From assembly GCA_964508365.1 (NCBI GenBank), contig CAZDTP010000014.1, forward strand, positions 8,190 to 72,189: a DNA stretch of 64,000 nt. Reading direction: 5' to 3'. Of the stretch, positions 2 to 12,122 are shown piece after piece. Numbering within the stretch: position 1 is the stretch's first letter; every line of letters begins with the position of its first letter. Made by a program: the position numbers and the translations under genes. The notes below the pieces were generated by a model. It did no database searches. It was not told where the DNA came from and was given only the letters and a program-made list of their open reading frames with translations. Origin of the DNA: an uncultured archaeon (GTDB lineage: Archaea; Asgardarchaeota; Lokiarchaeia; Sigyniarchaeales; SOKP01).

Positions 2-1666
2 GCTTCGGAGAATCGAATAACAAGTGACCTCTACTTATCCCGAGATAAGAAACCATTGGCAAAGTGTATCTTCGATCTTTCGGGGGGTTCAGACCACTAC
101 ATGTCCTATGGTATCATTAGGCGTCGTTCAAGAACTCAAGTGTACCTAACTGGTAGATTTCACTTAGACACAACCACTTACGCCAGTCTTCACTTTTCTG
201 AAGGCAATATTCCCGGAGTTATTGAAGTTGCCCGCATATCGAGAATTACACTCCAAAGATTAAGTCGCGTGACCATCGGAGGAGCGCTCCAATCAATACA
301 GTTTTATTACGCTTACAAGCTTGACCATCTGATTCCTCCATTCAAGAAAAATCCCGAAGGGTTCAGTACTGGAATGGATTTAATAAAAAGCGACCGTGGT
401 GGTCATATCTTCGAACCAATCATTGGAGTATTTGACCAAGTGGTAGAACTAGATTTTTCCTCGATGTATCCTTCTTTAATGGCCAACTTTAACATCTCAT
501 CAGAGACTATAAATTGTAAGTGCTGCAAAGACGATGGCACTGGTATAAAAGTTCCGGGATTGGACTTTCATATTTGTTCAAAAAGGGAAGGTATTATATC
601 AAAAGCTATAAGTTTGCCATTAAAAAAGAGATTGAAGTACAAAGAATATGTCCGCAAAACTGGAAATGTTCGCTATAACTTCACAGATATCGCTCTTAAA
701 TGGGTGCTTGTAGTAAGTTTTGGATATTTAGGCTTCAAAAATGCTCGATTTGGAAAGATAGAAGCGCATCAGACAGTTTGTGCTTTTGCTCGCGAGTTTC
801 TCATGCGTTCTGCTGAGATCGCTGAAGAACACGGATGTAAAATTATACATGGAATTGTCGATTCAATATGGTTGAAAGACACAAAAAATCGGAGTCCTGA
901 AGAATTCGAACAAATCTCAATAGAAGTCTCAGAAGAAATCACTAAAAGCGTAGGTATTCCAATGAGCTGGGATGGAAGGTACAATGTAATTGTTTTTCTT
1001 CCCTCTCGTGCAGAACCAGACATCCCAGCGCTGAGTCACTATTGGGGTATTAAGATCGACGGAGAAATAAAAGTACGAGGCGTCGAAGTCCGACGTAGAG
1101 ATGTACCAAAAATCGTTAAAGACGCACAGTATGCGTTTATAGATGTGTTTCAGGGAGTAACTACGACCGAAGAATTCATGAGAAGAATCCCAAAAGCCAA
1201 GAGCATGCTCTACCGTTACATAGACAAGATAGAGACTGGTAAAGTTTCGCGTGATGAACTTACAATTCGCCAAAGAATTTCTAGAAAACCTTCACAATAC
1301 AAGGTAAACTCCTATCAAGCTGTTGCTGCAAGACAATTAGAAAGATCAGGTGTTGTGGTGACTCCTGGTAAAAATGTACGGTATATTATACTGAATGCCG
1401 AAGCTGATCCTGAATTTCCTGAGAAGAAGGTAATTCTATCAGACATCTACGACGATAAAAAGCATCAGTATGATAAGAAAAAATATGCCGAACTACTGAA
1501 AAGAGCTTTTGAAAGCATATTTCCTTTTGAGTTTCCTGAACTAGAAGAAATGGTGAAGTCAGATATCATGAGAAAATCTCATCAAATGGATATGTCTTGC
1601 TACATTAAGGAATCCGATTTAAAAAGTACTCAGCGTAATCGAAGATACGGCAATGATAAAGACTAG
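2..1666 (+). CDS. polB2: Family B DNA polymerase, PolB2 (Dpo2-like) group, 5'-truncated by window edge
   Basis: Frame is open from base 2. DFSSMYPS (region II); KWVLVVSFGY replaces KxxxNSxYG; HGIVDS replaces YGDTDS; KVRGVEVRRRD. These substitutions are typical of PolB2. Confidence 0.85.
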   Translation, partial: ASENRITSDLYLSRDKKPLAKCIFDLSGGSDHYMSYGIIRRRSRTQVYLTGRFHLDTTTYASLHFSEGNIPGVIEVARISRITLQRLSRVTIGGALQSIQFYYAYKLDHLIPPFKKNPEGFSTGMDLIKSDRGGHIFEPIIGVFDQVVELDFSSMYPSLMANFNISSETINCKCCKDDGTGIKVPGLDFHICSKREGIISKAISLPLKKRLKYKEYVRKTGNVRYNFTDIALKWVLVVSFGYLGFKNARFGKIEAHQTVCAFAREFLMRSAEIAEEHGCKIIHGIVDSIWLKDTKNRSPEEFEQISIEVSEEITKSVGIPMSWDGRYNVIVFLPSRAEPDIPALSHYWGIKIDGEIKVRGVEVRRRDVPKIVKDAQYAFIDVFQGVTTTEEFMRRIPKAKSMLYRYIDKIETGKVSRDELTIRQRISRKPSQYKVNSYQAVAARQLERSGVVVTPGKNVRYIILNAEADPEFPEKKVILSDIYDDKKHQYDKKKYAELLKRAFESIFPFEFPELEEMVKSDIMRKSHQMDMSCYIKESDLKSTQRNRRYGNDKD

Positions 1667-1808
1667 AGATTTGAGTAAATCTTCTGGCATTGGTGGAAGT
1701 AAATTAAAGGAAATCTTAAATTTTCTGGTTAGAGAAGGGCTTATTAAAGAATATACTACTAATCAGGGTGTAGGGCGACCTGGAATTAATTATAGTATAG
1801 TAGAATAA
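1623..1808 (+). CDS. Winged helix-turn-helix segment in the +1 frame relative to PolB2 (frameshifted tail or separate small ORF from ATG 1653)
   Basis: Reads KVLSVIEDTAMIKTRDLSKSSGIGGSKLKEILNFLVREGLIKEYTTNQGVGRPGINYSIVE*, a wHTH pattern with GRP wing. Not in the ORF track. Confidence 0.6.
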   Translation, partial: KVLSVIEDTAMIKTRDLSKSSGIGGSKLKEILNFLVREGLIKEYTTNQGVGRPGINYSIVE

Positions 1809-1845: not shown

Positions 1846-2400
1846 TTAGATAATAAAAGGAAACAGAAAGAAGTCTAAAAAGATAGCAACTAAACATATA
1901 AATTCCATTATAACCCATAAATTTCTTTTTATGCTCCTTAAACCTTTGAGGGATTTCCCTGAATAACTAATTGTATTGTAGATTATAATCATTATCCATG
2001 CAACTACCAAAAAAACGATAGGGAGCAATAACGCGTATAATACTTGTCCGATAAAGTCTAATAAGTACACATAACCCAAAATTGAAAAACCGATTATAAC
2101 TAAAGTAAAACCCATACCAAAAGTATATTCTGCGAAGCTCACGAATCGATTAACTTTTATCTCATCAAAATCCTCTAATTTTAGCTCAAATTGCGCCCTT
2201 GAATTTGCAGAAACAGAATTTACAAACAGAATAAATGCTATCATTAGCAAGAAAGTAACTGTAACAATTCCTCTTGTTGGAGGTACCTGCCATACTAAAG
2301 CAAGAATCGTTAATACTGCTCCAATCATGACAGTGCTAAGAACAATCCAATCCCTTACGTTTAAAATTGTGTTTTGGCTTTTCTCTTCCATTTTACTCAC
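1846..2400 (-). CDS. Hypothetical integral membrane protein (about 5 TM segments)
   Basis: 184-aa ORF with alternating hydrophobic stretches. Confidence 0.75.
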   Translation of the reverse strand: MSKMEEKSQNTILNVRDWIVLSTVMIGAVLTILALVWQVPPTRGIVTVTFLLMIAFILFVNSVSANSRAQFELKLEDFDEIKVNRFVSFAEYTFGMGFTLVIIGFSILGYVYLLDFIGQVLYALLLPIVFLVVAWIMIIIYNTISYSGKSLKGLRSIKRNLWVIMEFICLVAIFLDFFLFPFII

Positions 2401-2585
2401 GATAAATATTGTTTATATTTAATTTATTTTTTGAACTAATTATTATAAAATTTCTCTTTTTCATCAAAATTTAGTAATCAATTGAAGTTTTCGTATTTTT
2501 TTTGAATTTGTTCAGTTAATTGTTCAAAAAAATATTCAATATATTTATAAATGAATATTTCATATTAATGATATGAAGGTGGTTA

Positions 2586-3551
2586 ATGATGGAAATAATG
2601 AATGAAATGAATAGAAAAAAATTGATTATCGAATCACAAAAATATGGAGCTATAAGCCTACGGCGTCAAAAGTTAAGGGTGCATAAAAATGGAGCAAAAT
2701 TTCCTATAAGTAAAGCGTATATTGATGACGAACTCCTAGATCCTGAAATTTCTTATACTCTTATTTTAATACCTGAGATCAAGATTGCGAACCAAACAAT
2801 TGTTTCCCTAACTTTTTTTAATAGAAAAAGAGGACCACTTATCTACTATTATTTTCCTGAGAATTCTTTAAATATGACAGAAAAAGCTATCATAACCGAT
2901 ATAATGATGTCCGCATCTAATGAAAGATACTTTATTCAACAATCGAGTAATTTATCTTCATTAAATTATTATTTTGAAATTTACTCTGATTGGGCTCGCG
3001 GGAAGAAAGAGATGTTAATGATTAGTGTTATCCTCAATACGAAAATAACTAAGTCAATTGAAGACGTGGTTCTTTCGATTTGTATCGATTTTCAAACAGA
3101 ATTGACATCTATTAAAGATATCTACAAGGCATTATATGATAAATTTTTAGATTCATTTTCCGATGAAGAACAATCTGATATAGAAAAAATCAGTAGAGAT
3201 TTACATATGAAAATAAAAGAATTTTATAAAAAAATAAGAATGTTAAACAGTCAAAAATTTGCAAAGGTTATATTCAAAGGTTCAATGGAAATCGAAAAGA
3301 AATTAGACTTAACTCAAATAGCTCAAGGAATTCAAGAGGCAGAGTTTAATCCAGAGAGATTTCCAGGATTAGTTATGAAAATTGAGAAACCAAGCGCCAC
3401 AATTCTTTTATTTTCTGATGGTAAATTAATGATAACCAATTTGAAAAATACATCTGAAGTAGATACATTGGTTGATATTTTTATGGAAAAACTTAAGAGT
3501 ATAGGTATCATAATACCTAAACCAGAAATTACATTAGAAAGTACCAAATAA
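2586..3551 (+). CDS. Multidomain protein: AbrB-like N-terminus, longin/uDENN-like domain, single C-terminal TBP repeat
   Basis: FFNRKRGPLIYYYFP matches the uDENN/longin FDxxxGP-type start. LDLTQIA..AEFNPERFPGLVMKIEKPSATILLFSDGKLMIT is one TBP repeat. Confidence 0.75.
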   Translation: MMEIMNEMNRKKLIIESQKYGAISLRRQKLRVHKNGAKFPISKAYIDDELLDPEISYTLILIPEIKIANQTIVSLTFFNRKRGPLIYYYFPENSLNMTEKAIITDIMMSASNERYFIQQSSNLSSLNYYFEIYSDWARGKKEMLMISVILNTKITKSIEDVVLSICIDFQTELTSIKDIYKALYDKFLDSFSDEEQSDIEKISRDLHMKIKEFYKKIRMLNSQKFAKVIFKGSMEIEKKLDLTQIAQGIQEAEFNPERFPGLVMKIEKPSATILLFSDGKLMITNLKNTSEVDTLVDIFMEKLKSIGIIIPKPEITLESTK

Positions 3552-3713: not shown

Positions 3714-3887
3714 ATGTCATCAAAAGTAGTCTCTTATTTCGATTGGTCCTTAGGATTTAGAAGTAATTCTCCTGTTAATTCTCCTAAATTTAAAAGTATG
3801 AAAAAATCCAGCTTGAATTCAATTGGAATATCAGATGATGAATTTAAGAACCATTTAAGTAAATGGAAGAAAAATAATCTTTCTTAA
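3714..3887 (+). CDS. Putative 57-aa small protein
   Basis: ATG..TAA ORF MSSKVVSYFDWSLGFRSNSPVNSPKFKSMKKSSLNSIGISDDEFKNHLSKWKKNNLS in an otherwise empty intergenic gap. Confidence 0.4.
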   Translation: MSSKVVSYFDWSLGFRSNSPVNSPKFKSMKKSSLNSIGISDDEFKNHLSKWKKNNLS

Positions 3888-3986: not shown

Positions 3987-6900
3987 CTATATAACAATTT
4001 CAGCAAGATAAAGAACAACTAATAATATAGCCCAAATAACTGTTAGTACTATTAAAATTATAGTAGTATAAAACCTCCATTTTATTGAAATCTTCTGTTT
4101 CTTTTCAATTCTGTAAATATAAATCGCAAGTATTGCTCCTAATATAATTATTGAGGATAATATCAGAATTATTCCAAAAATAATTGAGGTTAGGTACGGT
4201 AATATTAAAGCAAATACGAATATGGTAAAACTTATCCAAAGTGTTATAAAACGTTGCATTCTTTGTTTAAAAGCTTGATCTAAATCATCTGTTTTCCCGG
4301 TAGGGAGCAAAGAGATTAAAATTCCTGAAGTCGCTATACCTAAAAGAGATGCGTGATCCCATCTCAACAGACCCAGAACAATGTTGGAAAAGAGCATCCC
4401 TACTATTATACCTATAAACAGGCACAAAATTGTTCCTATTAATCTAAAGTGCTTTTTTAAGAAATTGAGAGTGGAATAATAAAAATTAAGAAGGATATTT
4501 TTGACTTTAATAAGAACAAATCGTAAATTATCAATAATATTGTTTAAGAATTTTTTCAATTCTTCAAACATAAAAATAAACAAATATAACATCATTCCTA
4601 TTAATAACCAAGAGAAACTCCATCCAGATGAAGATAAATTAAAAGTAATTAAGCTTAATAGCAAAAACATTAATCCGGAGTATAAAAAGGAAAATAATTT
4701 GCTTTGTTTAAAAGGTTTGAATAGAACTAAATTTATTATCATAAAAATGAATAATGCTATGCTCAAGTTTAAAATTAGATTCGGATTTATAAAAAATTCT
4801 AATGTTATAAAAAGATCTAACGATAGAAGGGTTTCAATACAGATAAAACTTGAAATCCGAAGAAAATTCCTAGCCTTATCACTTACAACCTTAATATAAT
4901 TGTCGATGAAGGTCAAAATTAGTAAGATAATAAACGATAATATCGATAAATTAAACGAAATAAAATAATCTGGATTAATATAATATAAAGGCCATGTGAT
5001 TAAATCGAAGTAGACGATTAGAATTAGGCACTTTTTAATTTTGGATATATTGGAACTGATATAATCCCATTCTGATATTAACCTAAATAAGTATGCGATT
5101 TGTATTATAAAGAATATTATAGTGATAGGGAAAAGGTGTGGGAAAAACAATGAATTCCAATCAATGTAGAATAAGATCGAGAAACCTATCATAACGATCC
5201 ATGAAGTGATGATAAAAAAATTCGAGGTTTTCTTTAAAAACTTTAAAATAAACTTATCCAACAAACTAATCAAATGTGTTAGAATACTTAAAATCAGGAT
5301 AGCTATATGGAATACTATACCAAATGCAGTCAACGAATTAAAGATGTTGATTATTAGAAAGGCATATAAACCTATCCCTAAGAAATTCTGCCTATTAGTT
5401 TTCCATTTTCCAAATATTTCTAGCTTTTCGGGATTAATTTTACGCCTAATATTGAAATATGAGATGTTAGTGTAAAAGTGCATTAATAAAAATATCAAAA
5501 ATATATAGAAAAGTGAAGATATTGAAAAACCATATAAATATAATAAAATCAGAGAAAGAGTCCAGGAGATATTTAAGAAACTTAAACAGTGGACAACATC
5601 CATATATCCTGCTTTTAAACGCTTTATACCATATATTTCCAAAATACTAATTATGAATAGAATAATTTGAGAATAGAGTAGACTCTGGATTAAGCCCGTA
5701 AATAACACAAAGAGTCCGAGAAATAAGACCGAAATCTCTAAGTAAATTGTAAATACTAAAATTGAAAAGAGTTTCCTTGTTTTAGTAACCCATTCCTCGT
5801 TTTTTATGATATCTTTCGATAGATGTACCGTGTAATTAGTTAATAAAGTTTCAGACAGTATAACTAATGCCATTCTTAAAAAATCGAGGATTGCGAATGT
5901 TGTAAAGAGGGCGAGCCAAAAAATACCAAAAAATATTTGGAACGCTATGAAAGTAGAGAAAAGAATAATTTTCTTATACTTATCTTCGATTGTGCGATTT
6001 AAAAAACCATTTAACAGAAACATTAGAAATGAAAAGACAGCAAGAACGAAGCTCAAGGAAGGAATTCCTAATAATAATGGGTTGTAGGCTATTAACAGGT
6101 CATTTAAAAATAGAGAAAGGTATATACTAATCACAAGAAAAATAGTATTCAGTAGAATTGATTGAGATTGATTTTTAATTTCTTTTATTTTGCTAGCATC
6201 ATATTTGGTAACTTCTTCGATATAGTAAGAAAGGTAATGTAAAGTATAGAACTGTAAGACCAGAAATATTACTAAAGTTAACACAAATAATGTTGCATCC
6301 GTTCCTGTAATTTGGATAAAGTATATTAATCCTCCAACCGAAATTACAAGAAATGCTACGATATTAAACAAATAAGCGATCTTTTCTAAAATTCTCTTTA
6401 AAACATGGATATCTAATAAGGTGGAGAGGAAAAATATAGCAACGGATAATAATATCGCTCCATATAAGCTAATAGTTATTAATTCCTGAATCAATCCAAA
6501 ACTTAACAAACCAAGTTCAAAATGCGATAGTAGGGACATAATAGAATCGAATTTGGTCATACCATAATCCTTTTCAGACTCTTGTTCTTCGATTTTCTTC
6601 ATAAAAATTAATCTTGATATCGAAAAATAAGCAGAATAAATCAAAAGTGAAAGCAAAACAATATAATAGAGTGATTGAAATAATTCAATGAATAATATGA
6701 ATTGTAGAGTTAATAGTGTTAATGCTAAAGGTGTAATATACCACAAGATAAAACTATATTCATATAATACCGACCTAAGAAAAAGCAAATTGACAAATAT
6801 GAATATCGCACTCAATAAAAAGATAGATCCTGGCAAGAAAACATAAACCAATGATGAAAGAGTAAGCGATGTTCCAATCGATAAAATAGATAATGGAAAT

Positions 6901-9900
6901 ATTTTTTTAAGGGGCATTATCATTCGAAATCTGTTAAATACAAGAATTGAGCCGCCAAAAACAGTAATTGCTAAAGATAAAGCGATGATTTCGATATTAG
7001 GAATTAATATAAACGTGTTGTAGGTGAAAAATGAGAAATTTACAACTAGTATCGACGAGATAATGATGTTAAAAAAAGTTCTGTTGAGTTTAAGGATCCT
7101 AGAAGAAAACAGACTGAAAGCGAGTATTATAAAAGAGAGGTTAATTGATATAAAGAAATTTAGAATTATTGAATTTATGATCAAGAAAAGTGTTAGGAAA
7201 ATGCCAATTAGAGAAAGAAAATATGAACCTATCAGTATAATGTTCTTCAAATTTTTTAAATTTGGGAAAAATGATAAAATAACGAAAAAGAATCCCAATA
7301 CGATTAGATTAATTGATAAGTTAATTTCTAATGGTAATAATATTACTTGGAATAACATAAAAAGGAAGCTTATGTTTATGAAAATGTAGAATAACCATAA
7401 GAGAGTTATGATCTTCCACATTTTCATTCTATAAATAACCGGCATAAGAAGAGATACTGCAAAAACAAAAAACACTATATTTGTAATCACGATATTTTCA
7501 GAAAAAACATTTTGACTAAACCAGTATAAGAAGAACAAGCTAAAACTCCAAACTATTATTAGAATTGAAGAGAAATGTCTTTTAATCCATGAGTACCAAA
7601 AAGGTAGAGAAAGCAAAACACAAATTGTAAAACTTATTATAAATGAACCACTAATGTTGATTCCAAAGAGATTTAACGCATTAGTGTTAATATTAATATC
7701 GGTAAAACTCTCGTTAATGATATAAAAATTTACGAAGGGAACAATAATCCATAACCTCCACCCTGTTTTCCATATCACCCAAGAGAATTTCCAGTAGTAA
7801 AAACCTATTGATAGGTAGAATAGAAGAATGCCAATATTGATGGTTATAATAAGCAAGAAAGGATCCCATACAGGTAAATTAAAAGAGGCATTTAAGAAAA
7901 AATACATTAAAGTTGGAATAGAAATAATGTAGGATGAAAAAGCAATATAAAAAGAACGTCGTCTGAAATTCTCAGGAGCTTTATTATAGGTTCCCACATA
8001 AGAAATACTGGTAACGCTTAAAGTTAGAGTGAATGTCAGTATTGGATTAAAATCTATAAAAATGGGATTATTAAATAGAATATAATAAGACAAGAAACTT
8101 ATTAGGTTAAAAACCATAAGCAAAACACAAGGTCGGATGAACCACTTATAAAGATCATTTTTTTGCTTGTAGTAGAAATTACCTGTTAATATTAAAAATA
8201 AGAACAGAGAGAAAGAAATGTTATAAATTAAAGGAATTACGGTATTGTAGAGTAGTAAACTAAAGGTTATAATCGATATTAATATATATAAAGCGAATTT
8301 TTCGATTACATTAACATTCCGTATGTTTAACACAATAGAAAAGAACAAGACAATCATTAACGAAAAATTGAAATAAAAAAGATAAAAAGGGAAGTCGAAT
8401 ATATCGAATGAAGGAAGTAACATATAATAATTTAATGTTATAATCAATCTTACTAAAATTAACCAGCTGAGTGAGAAGTAGCTAATAATTCGAAATACAA
8501 AATTGCGATTCCTATTGGAAATAAAGAAGTAGATCATAATAATAAAAAATACATAAGCAAAATATTCGAAAACACTCGGAAAGATAGAAAAGAAAGAAAG
8601 CATAAGTAGAGATGGACCTAGTAATATTTTTATTAGTTTGAATTCAGACACATTCTCAATTGTATCATTGTATTTAACCAGATAATAATTGAACAACAAA
8701 TATATACCACAGAATAAAACAATAAGTCGTAATGGTTGATATATGCTGTAAAATGGAAAAATTTGACTGTAATTCCAATATAATTCACTGAATATAATAA
8801 TTAAGACAAAGTAGAAAATATAATAGATGAGTCTTTTATAAAGTGTTTGAGAATCATCAGAGATAAAAAAGTTATTTCTTAAATAATAAATAGTAATAGG
8901 ACTGATGAAGAGTACAATTACTAAAGGTAAACCAATCCTTTGTATCAGAGATAATTGAGCAGGAATAATAAGAATATAGAAACACAATAAAATTTTAATT
9001 ATTACCCATGCGGATAAATCAAAAGCCCACCTGATTCTTGAAAATTCAATTTTGAATAATTTACGACTGACAGTTGATACTATTAGGTAAGTTAACAAAA
9101 ATATTCCAACATATGTAGTTAAAGTTAATAGTATAGACTCTTGAAGCTGAAATAATGAATAAATATTATGAAATGGAAACAGGAAAATAGTAAGCGAAGC
9201 TACCATAAATTCGATGAAAAAATAAAATATGTTCTTAGTATATTCGTATATTTTGTAGATTCTGTAATAATCAAATTTACTTTGTTCGTTTTCAAATATC
9301 CGCTGCTTGAGATTTTCAATTGGAATTAAGATAATAAGATTCAAAACAAGAAATACTAATGAGGAACAACTGATATCGATTCCAACATTATGAGTTATGG
9401 AGTTTAATACCGCAAAAAACTTCGCAGAGATAATAAAAGATAAAATCACCCAGGTGATAACCTGGCAAGTTTTAATAGAAACGAAATAGGATTCTTTAAG
9501 TTTATATTTATCAAAGAGAAATTCTAAAAAAACTAAGAATCCAAAAAATAAAGCAATTGCAGCACTATTGATTATATAATAATCTACAGCTACACCTAAT
9601 CTATTAAAATCTAATCCTATTATATAAGGAAGCGAAATTACTAATCCAGATATGACTAAACTGTCTATTATTAACATTCTCTCCATAAATTTAATGAAAA
9701 CATTCTTATTTAGGGAATAAAACAGAGGTAATAATAGAGATATGCCTAAGATCAGCAGAGGAATATTATATGCATAAACAGAAGTAGATAGAAACAAAAA
9801 TAGATAAAAAGAGATGAGAATACTGGTGAAACACATAGTAACTATATTAAATCCATTCGAAATTTTTTCTGAAAACAAAATTCTCTTCTTTGATAAAAAA

Positions 9901-12122
9901 TTGATAATCAAGCAAATAAGAACTATCGATATGTATGCTGAAAAAATTGGTTCAAATTGAAGTTGTTGGTTAAAGATGGCGAACATTATGAAGAAAGCTT
10001 CTAGCATTATTAAATAGCTGATAAACTTTTCAATTACCATAACTTTTTCCCGAGATATAATTTCTATCTTAACTCCCAATTTCAAAATGTAATAACACGC
10101 AATAGTTATATAGAGAATATTAAGCACGATTAACGAATTTAAAATTGTAAAAAATAAAGTAGTAATTAGATAGAAATTAAATATAAAGACTGACAGAAAT
10201 ATGATGCTGGAGCAAAAGAAATGATATATTAGGAAGGATTTTCGATTCATAACATTTTTTTTGTGAAGATAATAAATGGGAATGTAAGAGAGCAAGCTAA
10301 CTAAAATAAGAGGTACAAAAAATACTAAGAACGAGTCCTTAGTGTAAATTGTACTATAATAACCTACCATAAACAAACCTAGATATAACGTAAATGAGTT
10401 TAATATCAACGCTAGAGCCTGAGGAAAGATTTTGTATTTCTGTGAATCAAGATATATAATTAGACTTATTATCACCAATGAAAAAAATGAAGAAATAAGT
10501 AAGTCTAAATTCAAATAAATCATGAAAAATGATAGAAGCAAAACAAAAACTTCAATAGCAATGGGATAAGATATGATATTCAAAAGAGACCTAGATTTTG
10601 ATTCTTTGAGCATTCTTATTTTCTTTCCATAGTAAATTAGAATCACTAGACAAATGGATATAAACAATAGATTAAATATGGTACCAATAATTAGATGTGC
10701 GCTAAAGTAGATTACAATTATAAACCAGTTCAAAACGAAAAACAAAACCATGAGCACCCATGAGGAAACATAAGTGTAAATTGCGATGATTTTAGGTTTT
10801 AATACCTTTTCGCCATACAGATAATAAATCGGAGCAAAACCCAAGAAAAAAAATATAATAGGGGCAATTAAATATACATAAAACTCATTTATATTTGCGT
10901 CTAAAAAGTAAAATCCAACGATACCAGTATTAAATATCAGGATAAATAATGTCAATGTTATTTTTACTTTTCTAGGAATAATTACCACATTCGAAGGAAC
11001 TAGATTAAAAACGATACCAATAATGCAACAAGAAAGGAACAAGGCAAGCAAGGCGTCCAAAAGGAATACAAGACTAAAAATCCCATAAAATAATAAGAAA
11101 ATTTCAATTAATAGAGCAAAACTGTCAACGCTAATTATTAAATTGAAGGTGGAATCTTTAACTTTTTTTAGAATCTGTCCAAATCTAAGGTTAATTAAAA
11201 TAAAAACTGAAAGAAATACTAGATCTAGAAGCATAACTACAAAATTATTCCAAAAAATTATGAACATTATAAAAAAAATCGAGGACAGCAAAAACCAGCA
11301 GGCATAATAGCTATAATTTAAAGTGATTTCTCGAGAGAATATTCGAATGACATAGTTGAAAAGCACGAATAAAATGAAAACTATTGGAAGTAAAATTGAA
11401 GATAACATTAATTCTCCTTGAAATACCTCAAGAATTCCCAATGCTACATTTTTAATAGTAACTAAAACAAACCAAGTAGTTTCTAATAGTAAAAAGAGGG
11501 CAGTAATACAATAATTAAAAAGTTTCCAAGGTTTTTCGTATAATCGAATACGAACATAAGAAAAATAAAACGACAATAATGTTATTGCTAAGATAATAAT
11601 AGTGTGAATTAATATACTGGAGATTAAAAGTACATTTGGATCTACTGTGAACTGTAAATATACAAATTCGATTATTGGTAAGAATGAGTATAAAATTATT
11701 GTAAAACTAGCAACAACGAGCAGATTTTGAATAATTAATACCGTTTTTTCTTGAAAATATTTAAGCCTCTCAAAAAATTGAAATATTACATATAATGACA
11801 GTGTGAGTATAAGAAATTGAATATTTAAAAGCCCTATTCCCCAAAAAAATGGTAAGATCCAAAAGATAACAACGATTAACATCCCTAAGCTACTAAAAAG
11901 ATATATATACCTGCCGTAAAGAATGGTAGTAAAGTTCGCTTTTTCTTCGTAATAGGTGAGAATAAAAATTATCGGTAATGTAATAGTACTGATTAAAGGA
12001 TTATTATTCAATACTGAAATTGAGAGGACTAGAAGAATTAAACTGACTGAGACAATAAAATTTAACTTTATAAAAGTGTTAATCTCACCAGTATCAACCT
12101 CTTCAGCATTGTTAGAACTCAT
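3987..12122 (-). CDS. Giant polytopic membrane protein (2711 aa) with internal repeats
   Basis: Uninterrupted 8.1-kb ORF, hydrophobic helices throughout with short Lys-rich loops; start overlaps the upstream gene's stop. Confidence 0.85.
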   Translation of the reverse strand: MSSNNAEEVDTGEINTFIKLNFIVSVSLILLVLSISVLNNNPLISTITLPIIFILTYYEEKANFTTILYGRYIYLFSSLGMLIVVIFWILPFFWGIGLLNIQFLILTLSLYVIFQFFERLKYFQEKTVLIIQNLLVVASFTIILYSFLPIIEFVYLQFTVDPNVLLISSILIHTIIILAITLLSFYFSYVRIRLYEKPWKLFNYCITALFLLLETTWFVLVTIKNVALGILEVFQGELMLSSILLPIVFILFVLFNYVIRIFSREITLNYSYYACWFLLSSIFFIMFIIFWNNFVVMLLDLVFLSVFILINLRFGQILKKVKDSTFNLIISVDSFALLIEIFLLFYGIFSLVFLLDALLALFLSCCIIGIVFNLVPSNVVIIPRKVKITLTLFILIFNTGIVGFYFLDANINEFYVYLIAPIIFFFLGFAPIYYLYGEKVLKPKIIAIYTYVSSWVLMVLFFVLNWFIIVIYFSAHLIIGTIFNLLFISICLVILIYYGKKIRMLKESKSRSLLNIISYPIAIEVFVLLLSFFMIYLNLDLLISSFFSLVIISLIIYLDSQKYKIFPQALALILNSFTLYLGLFMVGYYSTIYTKDSFLVFFVPLILVSLLSYIPIYYLHKKNVMNRKSFLIYHFFCSSIIFLSVFIFNFYLITTLFFTILNSLIVLNILYITIACYYILKLGVKIEIISREKVMVIEKFISYLIMLEAFFIMFAIFNQQLQFEPIFSAYISIVLICLIINFLSKKRILFSEKISNGFNIVTMCFTSILISFYLFLFLSTSVYAYNIPLLILGISLLLPLFYSLNKNVFIKFMERMLIIDSLVISGLVISLPYIIGLDFNRLGVAVDYYIINSAAIALFFGFLVFLEFLFDKYKLKESYFVSIKTCQVITWVILSFIISAKFFAVLNSITHNVGIDISCSSLVFLVLNLIILIPIENLKQRIFENEQSKFDYYRIYKIYEYTKNIFYFFIEFMVASLTIFLFPFHNIYSLFQLQESILLTLTTYVGIFLLTYLIVSTVSRKLFKIEFSRIRWAFDLSAWVIIKILLCFYILIIPAQLSLIQRIGLPLVIVLFISPITIYYLRNNFFISDDSQTLYKRLIYYIFYFVLIIIFSELYWNYSQIFPFYSIYQPLRLIVLFCGIYLLFNYYLVKYNDTIENVSEFKLIKILLGPSLLMLSFFSIFPSVFEYFAYVFFIIMIYFFISNRNRNFVFRIISYFSLSWLILVRLIITLNYYMLLPSFDIFDFPFYLFYFNFSLMIVLFFSIVLNIRNVNVIEKFALYILISIITFSLLLYNTVIPLIYNISFSLFLFLILTGNFYYKQKNDLYKWFIRPCVLLMVFNLISFLSYYILFNNPIFIDFNPILTFTLTLSVTSISYVGTYNKAPENFRRRSFYIAFSSYIISIPTLMYFFLNASFNLPVWDPFLLIITINIGILLFYLSIGFYYWKFSWVIWKTGWRLWIIVPFVNFYIINESFTDININTNALNLFGINISGSFIISFTICVLLSLPFWYSWIKRHFSSILIIVWSFSLFFLYWFSQNVFSENIVITNIVFFVFAVSLLMPVIYRMKMWKIITLLWLFYIFINISFLFMLFQVILLPLEINLSINLIVLGFFFVILSFFPNLKNLKNIILIGSYFLSLIGIFLTLFLIINSIILNFFISINLSFIILAFSLFSSRILKLNRTFFNIIISSILVVNFSFFTYNTFILIPNIEIIALSLAITVFGGSILVFNRFRMIMPLKKIFPLSILSIGTSLTLSSLVYVFLPGSIFLLSAIFIFVNLLFLRSVLYEYSFILWYITPLALTLLTLQFILFIELFQSLYYIVLLSLLIYSAYFSISRLIFMKKIEEQESEKDYGMTKFDSIMSLLSHFELGLLSFGLIQELITISLYGAILLSVAIFFLSTLLDIHVLKRILEKIAYLFNIVAFLVISVGGLIYFIQITGTDATLFVLTLVIFLVLQFYTLHYLSYYIEEVTKYDASKIKEIKNQSQSILLNTIFLVISIYLSLFLNDLLIAYNPLLLGIPSLSFVLAVFSFLMFLLNGFLNRTIEDKYKKIILFSTFIAFQIFFGIFWLALFTTFAILDFLRMALVILSETLLTNYTVHLSKDIIKNEEWVTKTRKLFSILVFTIYLEISVLFLGLFVLFTGLIQSLLYSQIILFIISILEIYGIKRLKAGYMDVVHCLSFLNISWTLSLILLYLYGFSISSLFYIFLIFLLMHFYTNISYFNIRRKINPEKLEIFGKWKTNRQNFLGIGLYAFLIINIFNSLTAFGIVFHIAILILSILTHLISLLDKFILKFLKKTSNFFIITSWIVMIGFSILFYIDWNSLFFPHLFPITIIFFIIQIAYLFRLISEWDYISSNISKIKKCLILIVYFDLITWPLYYINPDYFISFNLSILSFIILLILTFIDNYIKVVSDKARNFLRISSFICIETLLSLDLFITLEFFINPNLILNLSIALFIFMIINLVLFKPFKQSKLFSFLYSGLMFLLLSLITFNLSSSGWSFSWLLIGMMLYLFIFMFEELKKFLNNIIDNLRFVLIKVKNILLNFYYSTLNFLKKHFRLIGTILCLFIGIIVGMLFSNIVLGLLRWDHASLLGIATSGILISLLPTGKTDDLDQAFKQRMQRFITLWISFTIFVFALILPYLTSIIFGIILILSSIIILGAILAIYIYRIEKKQKISIKWRFYTTIILIVLTVIWAILLVVLYLAEIVI
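9726..11105 (-). repeat. Three protein-level repeats with 552-nt (184-aa) period inside the giant membrane protein
   Basis: In-membrane Glu codons (LIEIF, AIEVF, MLEAF) at 11103/10551/9999; Pro of PIYY/PIYY/PLFY at 10830/10278/9726; every interval is 552 nt. Confidence 0.75.

What the first reader, a model, noticed from the sequence alone, without database searches (positions are those of the whole stretch)
2586..3551. Fusion of AbrB-like, longin/uDENN-like and a single TBP repeat in one protein
Seen: the last ~95 aa form one TBP half-domain that keeps the FPG and LLF phenylalanines but has lost the N(I/V)V Asn and has ITNLK in place of VTGAK; it stops just where a second repeat would begin. 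The middle starts SLTFFNRKRGPLIYYYFP like uDENN/longin domains, and the N-terminus (KLRVHKNGAKFPISKAYI) resembles a swapped-hairpin DNA-binding domain. Established: TBP normally has two repeats; longin/DENN domains are GTPase regulators and Asgard eukaryotic-signature domains. Inference: a possible link from small-GTPase or sensory signalling to basal transcription, for example a homodimerising pseudo-TBP or TBP/TFB antagonist.
Basis: partly seen in the sequence, partly recalled or inferred. Interest (0 to 1): 0.7.

Follow-up and report, generated by a model that had tools for sequence, protein, structure and literature searches.

The report
Asgard longin regulator carrying half a TBP
A group of Lokiarchaeia (Asgard archaea) has a real, conserved gene that joins a dimer-forming basic module, a folliculin/NPRL2-type domain of the kind that switches off small GTPases, and one half of the cell's own TATA-binding protein. 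Its promoter carries conserved phased repeats, so it looks like a self-regulating DNA-binding factor that may tie GTPase signalling to transcription.

Summary

- **aa 1-68:** a very conserved basic strand-strand-helix-strand module. It is predicted to form an intertwined homodimer, but no sequence test links it to AbrB.
- **aa 69-225:** a longin domain of the folliculin/NPRL2/SMCR8 "GAP" type. It has the invariant GP motif (G83-P84) and a near-invariant Arg138.
- **aa 226-321:** a true single TBP repeat. It is 47% identical to repeat 1 of this genome's own TBP1, runs colinear through the inter-repeat linker, and keeps both DNA-kinking Phe.

The genome also has two canonical two-repeat TBPs. 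The fusion is not a chimera or a decaying fragment. It occurs in 9 of 42 species genomes of one GTDB genus, the TBP part has no indels, and dN/dS for that part is 0.24. About 22 other genomes carry the same protein without the TBP half.

All seven orthologue promoters examined share an invariant TGTTCA-N6-TGTTCA repeat in a 12-bp-phased array around the TATA box.

Best reading: an autoregulated dimeric DNA-binding factor coupled to a small GTPase, with the half-TBP as a lineage-specific extra DNA grip. A homodimerising pseudo-TBP or TFB antagonist is unlikely.

The scan found this family before on other DNA (e1-5574214, e1-5569841). It is a new domain architecture built from known parts, and the function is inferred.

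The parts
2509..2526 (+). Invariant direct repeat TGTTCA-N6-TGTTCA, a candidate operator and high-affinity nucleation site
   Evidence: Identical hexamers and spacing in all 7 orthologue promoters aligned, both long and short forms, while the flanks diverge. The exact motif occurs 4 times in the 4.07-Mb genome, against 0 for the reversed control. Only this copy is non-coding.
2533..2562 (+). Continuation of the 12-bp-phased array: TATTCA (2533-2538), TATA-like TTATAA (2545-2550) and ATTTCA (2557-2562)
   Evidence: Hexamers read in 12-bp phase from the first repeat. Other orthologues carry one more unit, so the window and L023 differ by a deletion of exactly 12 nt, which preserves the phase.
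2575..2582 (+). Shine-Dalgarno-like GAAGGTGG, 3 nt before the ATG
   Evidence: Read directly from the sequence. A similar purine-rich GGTG element precedes the ATG in most of the orthologues.
2586..2789 (+). aa 1-68: basic N-terminal module (helix 7-19, then strand-strand-helix-strand), predicted intertwined homodimerisation domain and candidate DNA binder
   Evidence: Mean pairwise identity 0.82 and dN/dS 0.08, the most constrained part of the protein. In the homodimer prediction the confident interface is residues 2-65 of both copies, apart from one contact at residue 119 of one copy. No homology to AbrB or any other family was detected.
2790..3119 (+). aa 69-178: longin domain of the FLCN/NPRL2/SMCR8 'GAP' type. 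GP motif G83-P84 lies at 2832-2837 and the candidate Arg finger R138 at 2997-2999
   Evidence: AF2 pLDDT ~90. Structural matches Z 13.1-10.6 to folliculin-complex, GATOR1, SMCR8-complex, Lst4 and Loki longin chains; Foldseek E 1e-4 to 1e-3. G83, P84 and R138 are at least 90% conserved in 67 diverse subfamily members. The profile aligns to the NPRL2 GP region.
3120..3260 (+). aa 179-225: two long helices after the longin core. This is the linker to the TBP half and the C-terminus of the short forms
   Evidence: AF2 helices 179-190 and 193-222. They are included in the structural alignment to folliculin-complex chains (model range 70..223). Short-form orthologues end here.
3261..3551 (+). aa 226-321 plus stop: single TBP repeat derived from TBP repeat 1, its linker and the start of strand S1'. 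F259 lies at 3360-3362 and F276 at 3411-3413
   Evidence: Pfam E 2.4e-19. 47% identity without gaps over 96 aa to own TBP1 repeat 1. Z 15.0 to TBP. DNA-contact equivalents F259, F276, K265, K280, T284 and K287 are invariant or nearly so. dN/dS 0.24.

Best explanation
**Shown:** the gene encodes a modular protein. It has a basic N-terminal module that is predicted to make an intertwined homodimer. It has a folliculin/NPRL2/SMCR8-type longin domain carrying the two sequence hallmarks of the GTPase-activating longins, the GP motif and a conserved loop arginine. It ends in a copy of the first repeat of the lineage's own TBP that still carries the DNA-contacting residues.

**Inferred:** the conserved core (N-module plus longin, which also exists without the TBP half) is an autoregulated DNA-binding factor.
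- Dimers would sit on the phased TGTTCA-type hexamers that run from about 75 nt upstream of the start codon through the TATA box of its own promoter.
- The longin domain would bind, or stimulate GTP hydrolysis by, an Arf/Rag-like small GTPase, so that GTPase state and promoter occupancy are coupled.
- In one genus-level clade a truncated tbp copy was fused to the C-terminus. As a capped, monomeric half-saddle, present twice per dimer, it most likely adds a minor-groove grip on AT-rich DNA at or next to the TATA box. It probably does not rebuild a second TBP.
For: **Architecture and folds**
- establish the three folds.

**GAP-type longin**
- G83-P84 is invariant in the family.
- G83, P84 and R138 are at least 90% conserved across 67 members at 22-56% identity.
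- PMC12290439 reports that a GP motif just before strand 2, together with a neighbouring Arg finger, is specific to FLCN, NPRL2, SMCR8/C9orf72 and a class of Asgard longins.
- The subfamily profile aligns to NPRL2 residues 9-40 across its G20-P21 (E 0.27, weak).
- GP-to-Arg spacing is 54 residues here, 57 in NPRL2 (G20-P21, Arg78) and 78 in SMCR8.

**Link to GTPases**
- Paralogues and relatives with the same motifs are fused to small GTPase domains. L008 has a P-loop and an NKxQ motif. P0252 has an Arf domain at E 2.9e-33.

**Dimer**
- Complex prediction supports binding but does not show it. Score 0.60, best of 3 controls 0.00.
- That mark was reached by 20 of 30 proteins solved as pairs of one chain and by 1 of 23 solved as single chains. 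These counts hold only roughly here, because my own alignment was used.
- The runs agree in at least 87% of contacts and the partner's pLDDT is at least 77.
- The confident interface is residues 2-65 of both copies, plus one contact at residue 119 of one copy, with symmetric pairs 60:60, 59:59 and 39:39.

**Operator**
- TGTTCA-N6-TGTTCA is invariant in 7 of 7 orthologue promoters. It is followed by degenerate TTCA hexamers and the TATA box in 12-bp phase.
- A 12-nt (one-unit) indel separates lineages without breaking the phase.
- The exact motif lies in non-coding DNA only at this promoter in this genome.

**TBP half is functional and DNA-competent in sequence**
- No indels in 23 orthologues, and identity 0.61, like the longin domain at 0.63.
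- dN/dS 0.24.
- F259, F276, K265 and K280 are invariant, and K227, T284 and K287 nearly so.
- There is precedent for a single TBP-like domain binding duplex nucleic acid in RNase HIII, and for monopartite TBP-domain proteins in archaea (PMC4132731 and PMC3597702).
Against: - No experiment or model shows DNA binding by either end of the protein.
- The N-module has no detectable relative among DNA-binding families and folds poorly as a monomer (pLDDT 55).
- The repeats could be bound by another factor. The seven promoters are related by descent.
- I could not superpose the model on FLCN/NPRL2 residue by residue, so equating R138 with the catalytic Arg rests on conservation, loop position and spacing.
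- Eukaryotic longin GAPs work as longin heterodimers, and no partner is known here.
- No small GTPase gene is a conserved neighbour.
- The central Asn of the TBP repeat is replaced by Lys, so TATA specificity is not assured.
- The half-TBP was lost cleanly in one nested lineage, so it is dispensable.
Confidence: 0.45

Rival explanations
1. Homodimerising pseudo-TBP or TBP/TFB antagonist. Two half-saddles, brought together by dimerisation, would rebuild a TBP-like saddle that occupies TATA boxes or titrates TFB.
For: The protein is predicted to dimerise, so two halves are tethered. Both kinking Phe and the basic phosphate-contact residues are kept. The TATA box lies in phase within the promoter array.
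Against: - The half is a repeat-1 copy (97.8 bits against 43.5 and 39.7 bits for the two repeat 2s). TFB contacts the C-terminal (repeat 2) stirrup, by established knowledge.
- The conserved C-terminal strand 314-319 superposes on S1' of TBP (model 228..319 on 7o4i_O 70..159). It therefore occupies the edge where the second half would pair.
- The central Asn is Lys.
- The half is optional within the family.
Confidence: 0.1
2. A pure GTPase-signalling scaffold with no role on DNA. The N-module would only dimerise, the longin would act on a GTPase, and the TBP-fold domain would serve as a protein-binding platform, as the TBP-fold subdomain of adaptin appendages does.
For: - TBP-fold domains act as protein platforms, and Asgard proteins combine appendage-type TBP folds with longin domains (PMC11188069).
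- This longin subfamily is a promiscuous signalling module, fused to Arf, PAS, GAF, histidine kinase and TPR domains.
- The N-module has no homology to DNA binders.
Against: - The domain is a recent copy of genuine TBP. Its DNA-face residues (two Phe, Thr, four Lys/Arg) are the most conserved positions, which a protein platform would not need.
- The N-module is strongly basic between residues 10 and 43.
- The promoter's invariant phased repeats travel with the gene across genera.
Confidence: 0.2
3. Assembly chimera or decaying tbp fragment with no function.
For: The half-TBP is confined to one genus-level clade and has been deleted once.
Against: - The same fusion is in 9 species-level genomes, and among the best 120 protein clusters listed about 57 carry a precomputed PF00352 hit, from several sequence sources.
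- There are no indels or stops in the domain in 23 orthologues.
- dN/dS is 0.24, equal to the longin domain.
- Synteny is conserved at 60% identity.
Confidence: 0.02

Closest known systems
Archaeal TATA-binding protein (this genome's TBP1 at G000 C7:26840-27358; solved: 1MP9, 2Z8U, 1PCZ/1AIS)
   Same: aa 226-321 is a sequence-level TBP repeat (Pfam E 2.4e-19). It is 47% identical and gap-free against TBP1 repeat 1, has the same fold (Z 15.0, rmsd 1.3 A), and keeps the two intercalating Phe, the Thr and the basic phosphate contacts.
   Different: It has only one repeat plus the first residues of S1', so no saddle and no repeat-2 stirrup for TFB. The central Asn is replaced by Lys. It falls far below every NCBIfam TBP cut-off (64.6 bits against 181 or more). 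It is fused behind two unrelated modules.
Longin-domain GAP subunits FLCN, NPRL2 and SMCR8, and the 'FLCN/SMCR8-type' Asgard longins of PMC12290439; the Lokiarchaeal Roadblock-Longin structure 8YQG
   Same: Longin fold with best Z 13.1-10.6 to chains of these complexes. GP motif immediately before strand 2. A near-invariant Arg in a loop ~54 residues later. Relatives are fused to Arf/Ras-type GTPases.
   Different: No DENN or winged-helix C-terminal part, only two helices. No known partner longin. No Pfam Folliculin or NPR2 hit. GAP activity and the identity of the Arg finger are untested. It is joined to DNA-binding-type modules.
Monopartite TBP-domain proteins (halobacterial TbpA, euryarchaeal single-TBP-domain groups; PMC3597702) and the RNase HIII N-domain (PMC4132731)
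   Same: A single TBP-fold domain working outside the two-repeat context. RNase HIII shows that one such domain can bind a nucleic-acid duplex.
   Different: Those are free-standing or fused to RNase H, and mostly very divergent from TBP. This one is a close copy of the host lineage's own repeat 1 and is fused to a longin regulator.
AbrB/MazE/SpoVT swapped-hairpin transition-state regulators (PF04014)
   Same: A small basic strand-strand-helix-strand unit predicted to form an intertwined symmetric dimer. The candidate operator is made of short direct repeats, as I recall for AbrB TGGNA pairs (own knowledge).
   Different: No Pfam match, and hhalign probability 0.1 against seven PF04014 domains of the same genome. 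It has three rather than four strands per chain and an extra N-terminal helix. It should not be filed as AbrB.

Membership tests
TBP (PF00352 / NCBIfam TATA-box-binding protein) | Sequence match to the TBP repeat model above the curated cut-off | tested here: met
   PF00352 at 69.4 bits against a cut-off of 22.9, aa 232-305.
TBP (PF00352 / NCBIfam TATA-box-binding protein) | Two tandem repeats forming the ten-stranded saddle (full-length TBP) | tested here: not met
   One matched stretch only. All NCBIfam TBP models score 46-65 bits against cut-offs of 181-347. The protein ends ~6 residues into S1'.
TBP (PF00352 / NCBIfam TATA-box-binding protein) | Pair of DNA-kinking phenylalanines per repeat | tested here: met
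   F259 and F276 are invariant in 23 orthologues and align with the Phe of own TBP1 repeat 1.
TBP (PF00352 / NCBIfam TATA-box-binding protein) | Central minor-groove Asn of strand S1 (N-I/V-V) | tested here: not met
   K227 aligns with the Asn of ENVVATV. The column is K in 21, R in 1 and N in 1 of the 23 orthologues.
TBP (PF00352 / NCBIfam TATA-box-binding protein) | Repeat-2 stirrup that binds TFB | tested here: not met
   The domain matches repeat 1 (97.8 and 72.8 bits) far better than repeat 2 (43.5 and 39.7 bits) of both own TBPs.
FLCN/NPRL2/SMCR8-type GAP longin | Longin fold (strand-strand-helix-strand-strand-strand-helix) | tested here: met
   AF2 elements E72-79, E83-90, H97-110, E115-119, E124-133, E141-149, H156-174 at pLDDT ~90. 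Z 13.1 to 6nzd_H over 137 residues, and many other longins at Z 8-11.5.
FLCN/NPRL2/SMCR8-type GAP longin | GP motif at the end of the strand 1-2 loop (PMC12290439) | tested here: met
   G83-P84 is invariant in 40 family members and at least 90% conserved in 67 subfamily members, directly at the start of strand 83-90. It aligns with NPRL2 G20-P21 (E 0.27).
FLCN/NPRL2/SMCR8-type GAP longin | Catalytic arginine finger next to the GP motif | tested here: inconclusive
   R138 (WARG) is at least 90% conserved and lies in the loop between strands 124-133 and 141-149. Its spacing from GP is 54 residues, against 57 in NPRL2. No residue-level superposition was possible, and a profile of this region found nothing in the PDB.
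FLCN/NPRL2/SMCR8-type GAP longin | C-terminal DENN (FLCN, SMCR8) or winged-helix (NPRL2) part and a partner longin subunit | tested here: not met
   Only two helices (179-222) follow the longin core. No partner gene is conserved nearby.
FLCN/NPRL2/SMCR8-type GAP longin | GAP activity on a Rag/Arf-type GTPase | not testable with these tools
   Only indirect evidence: relatives with the same motifs are fused to GTPase domains.
AbrB/MazE/SpoVT (PF04014) | Sequence or profile similarity to the family | tested here: not met
   No Pfam hit at E up to 10. The gene is not among 10 PF04014 matches in the genome. hhalign probability 0.1.
AbrB/MazE/SpoVT (PF04014) | Intertwined (swapped-hairpin) homodimer | tested here: inconclusive
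   A symmetric intertwined dimer through residues 2-65 is predicted (score 0.60 against controls 0.00). No dimer model was available for a fold search, and the monomer model has pLDDT 55.

The most novel reading that the evidence does not exclude
A GTPase-gated transcription factor. The nucleotide state of an Asgard Arf/Rag-like GTPase, read or reset by the FLCN/NPRL2-type longin domain, would control how a dimeric factor polymerises along phased TGTTCA sites. In the fused clade its half-TBP would occupy the in-phase TATA slot in place of TBP. [quoted passage not shown]
Probability: 0.2. Interest if true: 0.8.

Novelty: new variant of a known kind. Interest (0 to 1): 0.6.

Why it matters
Asgard archaea encode many small GTPases and many longin and roadblock domains, but almost nothing is known about what these switches control.

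This family gives a compact, soluble, experimentally tractable case. A longin domain with the hallmarks of the eukaryotic Rag/Arf GAPs is fused to candidate DNA-binding modules, and its own promoter supplies a ready candidate binding site.

If the link holds, GTPase signalling in these archaea can act on gene expression as well as on membranes. That parallels the way eukaryotic folliculin ultimately controls transcription factors.

The half-TBP is also a natural experiment on what a single TBP repeat can do. This bears on models in which TBP arose from a monomeric domain (PMC3597702).

The limits are that the TBP fusion is confined to one genus-level clade and is dispensable, and that every functional step is inferred.

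Tried and rejected
**AbrB homology**
- Pfam found nothing, and the gene is not among the genome's PF04014 matches.
- hhalign of the N-module profile against seven own-genome AbrB domains gave probability 0.1.
- The N-module profile against the PDB gave only chance hits. One was an eL29-like basic motif at E 3.2.
- The ESM Atlas feature search of aa 1-70 gave no usable hit.
- AF2 of aa 1-72 alone gave pLDDT 55, too poor for a fold search, so none was run.

**Residue-level proof that R138 is the Arg finger**
- A profile of the strand 3-5 region found nothing in the PDB.
- The supplement of PMC12290439 and two papers (PMC10050129, PMC6393612) are not held.

**Partner GTPase by gene neighbourhood**
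- One Ras-family gene lies 2.6 kb from a short-form gene (L010). It is not conserved in L012, L009 or L026. Rejected as evidence.

**Regulon search**
- Exact TGTTCA-N6-TGTTCA occurs 4 times in the genome. The other three copies lie inside coding sequence, including the first codons of an enoyl-CoA hydratase gene.
- With one mismatch there are 41 hits, 5 of them non-coding, against 20 and 1 for the reversed control. Two of the 5 are in this same promoter. No convincing further targets emerged.

**Homodimer prediction and the TBP and longin parts**
- Apart from one contact at residue 119, neither appears in the confident interface of the full-length homodimer prediction. That is not evidence that they do not touch.

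**TBP remnant downstream of the nested short form (P0067)**
- tblastn found none, so this was a clean deletion, not a split gene.

**Literature**
- No paper with 'TBP domain' + Asgard + single.
- TBP + longin + Asgard found only the ESCRT paper, where TBP means the appendage fold.
- One search was wasted on too broad a term.
Full report
**1. The object**

The ORF listing gives one ORF at 2586..3551 on the + strand, 321 aa. A Shine-Dalgarno-like GAAGGTGG lies at 2575-2582 and a TATA-like TTATAA at 2545-2550. The gene stands alone. It is divergent from a 184-aa membrane-protein gene (1846-2400, -) and convergent with a 2711-aa all-membrane gene (3987-12122, -). The window is G000:C14:8190-72189 of a 4.07-Mb Lokiarchaeial genome with 100% estimated completeness. 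The closest named relatives are Lokiarchaeota/Promethearchaeota MAGs.

**2. The TBP half**

- Pfam PF00352 matches aa 232-305 once (E 2.4e-19). Full-length TBP models of NCBIfam stay far below their cut-offs.
- The AF2 model was built from a 40-row alignment (mean pLDDT 82.8, pTM 0.65). It superposes on TBP with Z 15.0, rmsd 1.3 A over 90 residues and Foldseek E 2e-7.
- The genome has two ordinary two-repeat TBP genes, at C7:26840-27358 and C3:32785-33306.
- BLASTP of aa 223-321 against their four repeats gives 97.8 bits (47% identity, 96 aa, no gap) for TBP1 repeat 1. TBP2 repeat 1 gives 72.8 bits, and the two repeat 2s give 43.5 and 39.7 bits.
- The alignment runs colinear through the linker, PEITLES against PEITIQN. 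The domain is therefore repeat 1, the linker and the first residues of strand S1', that is, a truncated copy of a TBP1-type gene.
- In 23 fused orthologues the equivalents of the canonical DNA contacts are F259, F276, K265 and K280 (invariant) and K227, T284 and K287 (nearly invariant). I mapped these contacts by colinearity to yeast and archaeal TBP from my own knowledge of the TBP-DNA structures.
- K227 stands where the central Asn should be.
- The last strand (314-319) lies within the part of the model that superposes on TBP up to the start of S1' (model 228..319 on 7o4i_O 70..159). The half-saddle therefore appears to cap its own central edge. This is an inference from the aligned ranges.

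**3. The longin domain**

- Residues 72-174 have the longin order strand-strand-helix-strand-strand-strand-helix, followed by two long helices.
- An exhaustive structural search puts chains of the longin GAP complexes directly below TBP:

| Chain | Complex | Z | Aligned residues |
|---|---|---|---|
| 6nzd_H | folliculin complex | 13.1 | 137 |
| 8fw5_C | GATOR1 | 11.5 | 132 |
| 8yqg_B | Lokiarchaeal Roadblock-Longin protein | 11.5 | 136 |
| 7o2w_A | C9orf72-SMCR8 | 10.6 | 140 |
| 4zy8_C | Lst4 longin | 10.6 | 128 |

- SNARE, adaptor-sigma/mu, TRAPP and DENN longins follow at Z 7-9.5. I did not verify which subunit each chain letter is.
- PMC12290439 reports that the GAP longins (FLCN, NPRL2, SMCR8, C9orf72), and a class of Asgard longins, share a GP motif just before strand 2 and an adjacent arginine finger. 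FNIP2, NPRL3, adaptins, TRAPP and DENND proteins lack them.
- Here G83-P84 is invariant and sits at the start of strand 83-90.
- A search of 1.84 billion cluster representatives with aa 66-225 found 217 clusters at E of 1e-3 or better.
- In 67 diverse members (22-56% identity) the positions at least 90% conserved are F78, G83, P84, P91, N127, F130, S134, R138 and E142.
- The profile of these 67 aligns to human NPRL2 residues 9-40 across G20-P21. The E-value of 0.27 is not significant alone, but the register is as expected.
- R138 lies in the loop between strands 124-133 and 141-149, 54 residues after GP. In NPRL2 the catalytic Arg78 lies 57 residues after G20-P21. In SMCR8, R147 lies 78 residues after G68-P69.
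- In an antiparallel sheet, the 1-2 loop and the 4-5 loop both lie at the same end of strand 1, so the two motifs should be neighbours.

**4. Link to GTPases**

- The same genome has two paralogues with the same motifs. One continues into a helical, winged-helix-like tail (L007, 386 aa). The other continues into a P-loop GTPase (L008, 347 aa; GPTNAGKS and NKFQ motifs; Arf/Ras Pfam matches just under the cut-offs).
- Among distant relatives, P0252 is longin-Arf(E 2.9e-33)-PAS-GAF-HATPase. Others carry PAS-histidine kinase, TPR or wHTH domains.
- These fusions argue that this longin type works with small GTPases, and that it is a widely reused signalling module.
- Gene neighbourhoods give no partner. 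This fits the published remark that small GTPase genes of strain MK-D1 are generally not in operons with longin genes (PMC10933270).

**5. The N-terminal module**

- Residues 1-68 are the most constrained part. Mean pairwise identity is 0.82 among fused forms and 0.75 between fused and unfused forms, and dN/dS is 0.08.
- The module is strongly basic between residues 10 and 43.
- No sequence method relates it to AbrB or to anything else.
- As a monomer it folds poorly (pLDDT 55).
- In a full-length homodimer prediction the model supports binding but does not show it. The score is 0.60 and the best of 3 controls is 0.00.
- That mark was reached by 20 of 30 proteins solved as pairs of one chain and by 1 of 23 solved as single chains. 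These counts hold only roughly, because my own alignment was used.
- The runs agree in at least 87% of contacts and the partner's pLDDT is at least 77.
- The confident interface is residues 2-65 of both copies, plus one contact at residue 119 of one copy. It shows about 200 contacts and dyad-symmetric pairs (60:60, 59:59, 39:39, 38:38; 58 with 25-28 of the other chain).
- That is the signature of an intertwined barrel-like dimer built from a strand-strand-helix-strand unit. The building plan is the same as in swapped-hairpin and related barrels (own knowledge), but membership in AbrB is not shown.

**6. Distribution and history**

- One search found 164 clusters at E of 1e-3 or better. Among the 120 listed, about 57 carry a precomputed PF00352 hit, most of them 316-324 aa long. 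About 60 shorter proteins, mostly 219-232 aa with a few fragments, stop after the helices.
- In 399 species genomes of the phylum, the fused form (match 1-321) occurs in 9 of the 42 genomes of the window's own GTDB genus, at 57-84% identity to the window's copy.
- The unfused form occurs in 13 further genomes of that genus, 8 of 54 in a sister genus and one genome of another family. No genome in the list shows both.
- A maximum-likelihood tree of aa 1-222 puts all 23 fused sequences in one clan, with a single unfused sequence (P0067) nested inside. Forcing strict monophyly is rejected (p-AU 0.0002).
- At the P0067 locus the synteny is intact and no TBP remnant is left.
- The history is therefore one gain and one clean loss.
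- dN/dS between the window and an 84%-identical orthologue is 0.23 for the longin domain, 0.30 for the helices and 0.24 for the TBP half.
- Chimera and decay are excluded.

**7. The promoter**

Earlier notes of this scan on other genomes called the family 'self-regulating', so I aligned seven orthologue upstream regions. These were four fused forms, the nested unfused form, and two distant unfused forms, one from a MAG labelled Hodarchaeota.

All seven share an invariant TGTTCA-N6-TGTTCA (window 2509-2526), while sequence further upstream does not align. Read in 12-bp phase, the window gives:

- TGTTCA
- TGTTCA
- TATTCA
- TTATAA (the TATA box)
- ATTTCA

L025, L009 and L026 have one more degenerate unit before the TATA box. 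The lineages therefore differ by exactly one 12-nt unit, and the TATA box stays in phase.

In this genome the exact pair occurs four times, against 0 for the reversed control. Only this copy is non-coding.

The simplest reading is an operator array for the gene's own product, nucleated at the two perfect hexamers and extending over the TATA box. That the protein itself binds there is an inference.

**8. Synthesis**

Shown:
- the three-module architecture;
- the GAP-longin hallmarks;
- the origin of the TBP half from repeat 1;
- purifying selection on every module;
- one gain and one loss of the TBP half;
- a conserved phased repeat in the promoter.

Inferred:
- DNA binding by the N-module dimer;
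- autoregulation;
- coupling to a small GTPase;
- the half-TBP as an extra minor-groove grip near the TATA box.

The pseudo-TBP/TFB-antagonist idea is disfavoured by four points: the repeat-1 origin, the capped central edge, the lost Asn and the optional nature of the domain.

**9. Novelty**

No paper found in the library describes a TBP repeat fused to a longin domain. Single TBP-domain proteins and Asgard FLCN/SMCR8-type longins are each known (PMC3597702, PMC12290439). The scan itself met the same family on two other genomes (e1-5574214, e1-5569841) and a conceptually similar longin-TFB-repeat fusion (e1-5395879). I class it as a new variant (a new architecture) of known kinds. It is of moderate-to-high interest because it offers a testable link between Asgard GTPase switches and transcription.

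Noticed in passing
window 3714-3887 (+): A 57-aa ORF just downstream (MSSKVVSYFDWSLGF...NSIGISDDEFK..WKKNN) is conserved at the same place in L026 (4800-4964) and twice in L009 (9120-9290 and 9448-9612). It has 16 invariant positions, so it is probably a real small gene of unknown function. It has no Pfam hit.
   Followed up: partly
L007:1501-2661 (G000 C45:3206-...): A 386-aa paralogue has the same longin motifs (GP, WARGNKD) followed by a ~230-aa helical, winged-helix-like tail, an NPRL2-like layout. Proteins of this type (~370-500 aa) are found in nearly every genome of the GTDB family. An earlier scan note (e1-5565343) describes the same kind elsewhere.
   Followed up: partly
L008:1513-2556 (G000 C3:95177-...): A 347-aa paralogue fuses the same longin type (GP, YARGGKE) to a C-terminal small GTPase domain (GPTNAGKS P-loop, NKFQ). 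Pfam Arf/Ras matches fall just under the cut-offs.
   Followed up: partly
P0252 and P0230 (proteins): Distant relatives of the longin domain head very large signalling proteins. P0252 is longin-Arf-PAS-GAF-histidine kinase ATPase (1119 aa) and P0230 is longin-5xPAS-HATPase (1159 aa).
   Followed up: no
window 1846-2400 (-) and 3987-12122 (-): The divergent 184-aa membrane protein and the convergent 2711-aa all-membrane protein keep their positions next to this gene in orthologous loci at 60% protein identity (L009, L026/L027), along with an upstream PolB gene. The shared intergenic region with the 184-aa gene means the TGTTCA array could also affect that gene.
   Followed up: no
P0001 aa 24-44: The invariant basic motif RRQKLRVHKNGAKFPISKAY resembles the N-terminal rRNA-binding motif of eukaryotic ribosomal protein eL29 (HNQSRKAHRNGIKKP) in a PDB profile search. 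E is 3.2, so this is most likely chance.
   Followed up: no
window 1653-1808 (+): A 51-aa ORF overlapping the end of the PolB gene has weak winged-helix matches (HTH_24 E 0.005, TrmB E 0.009). Another first-stage note proposes a +1 frameshift joining it to PolB.
   Followed up: no
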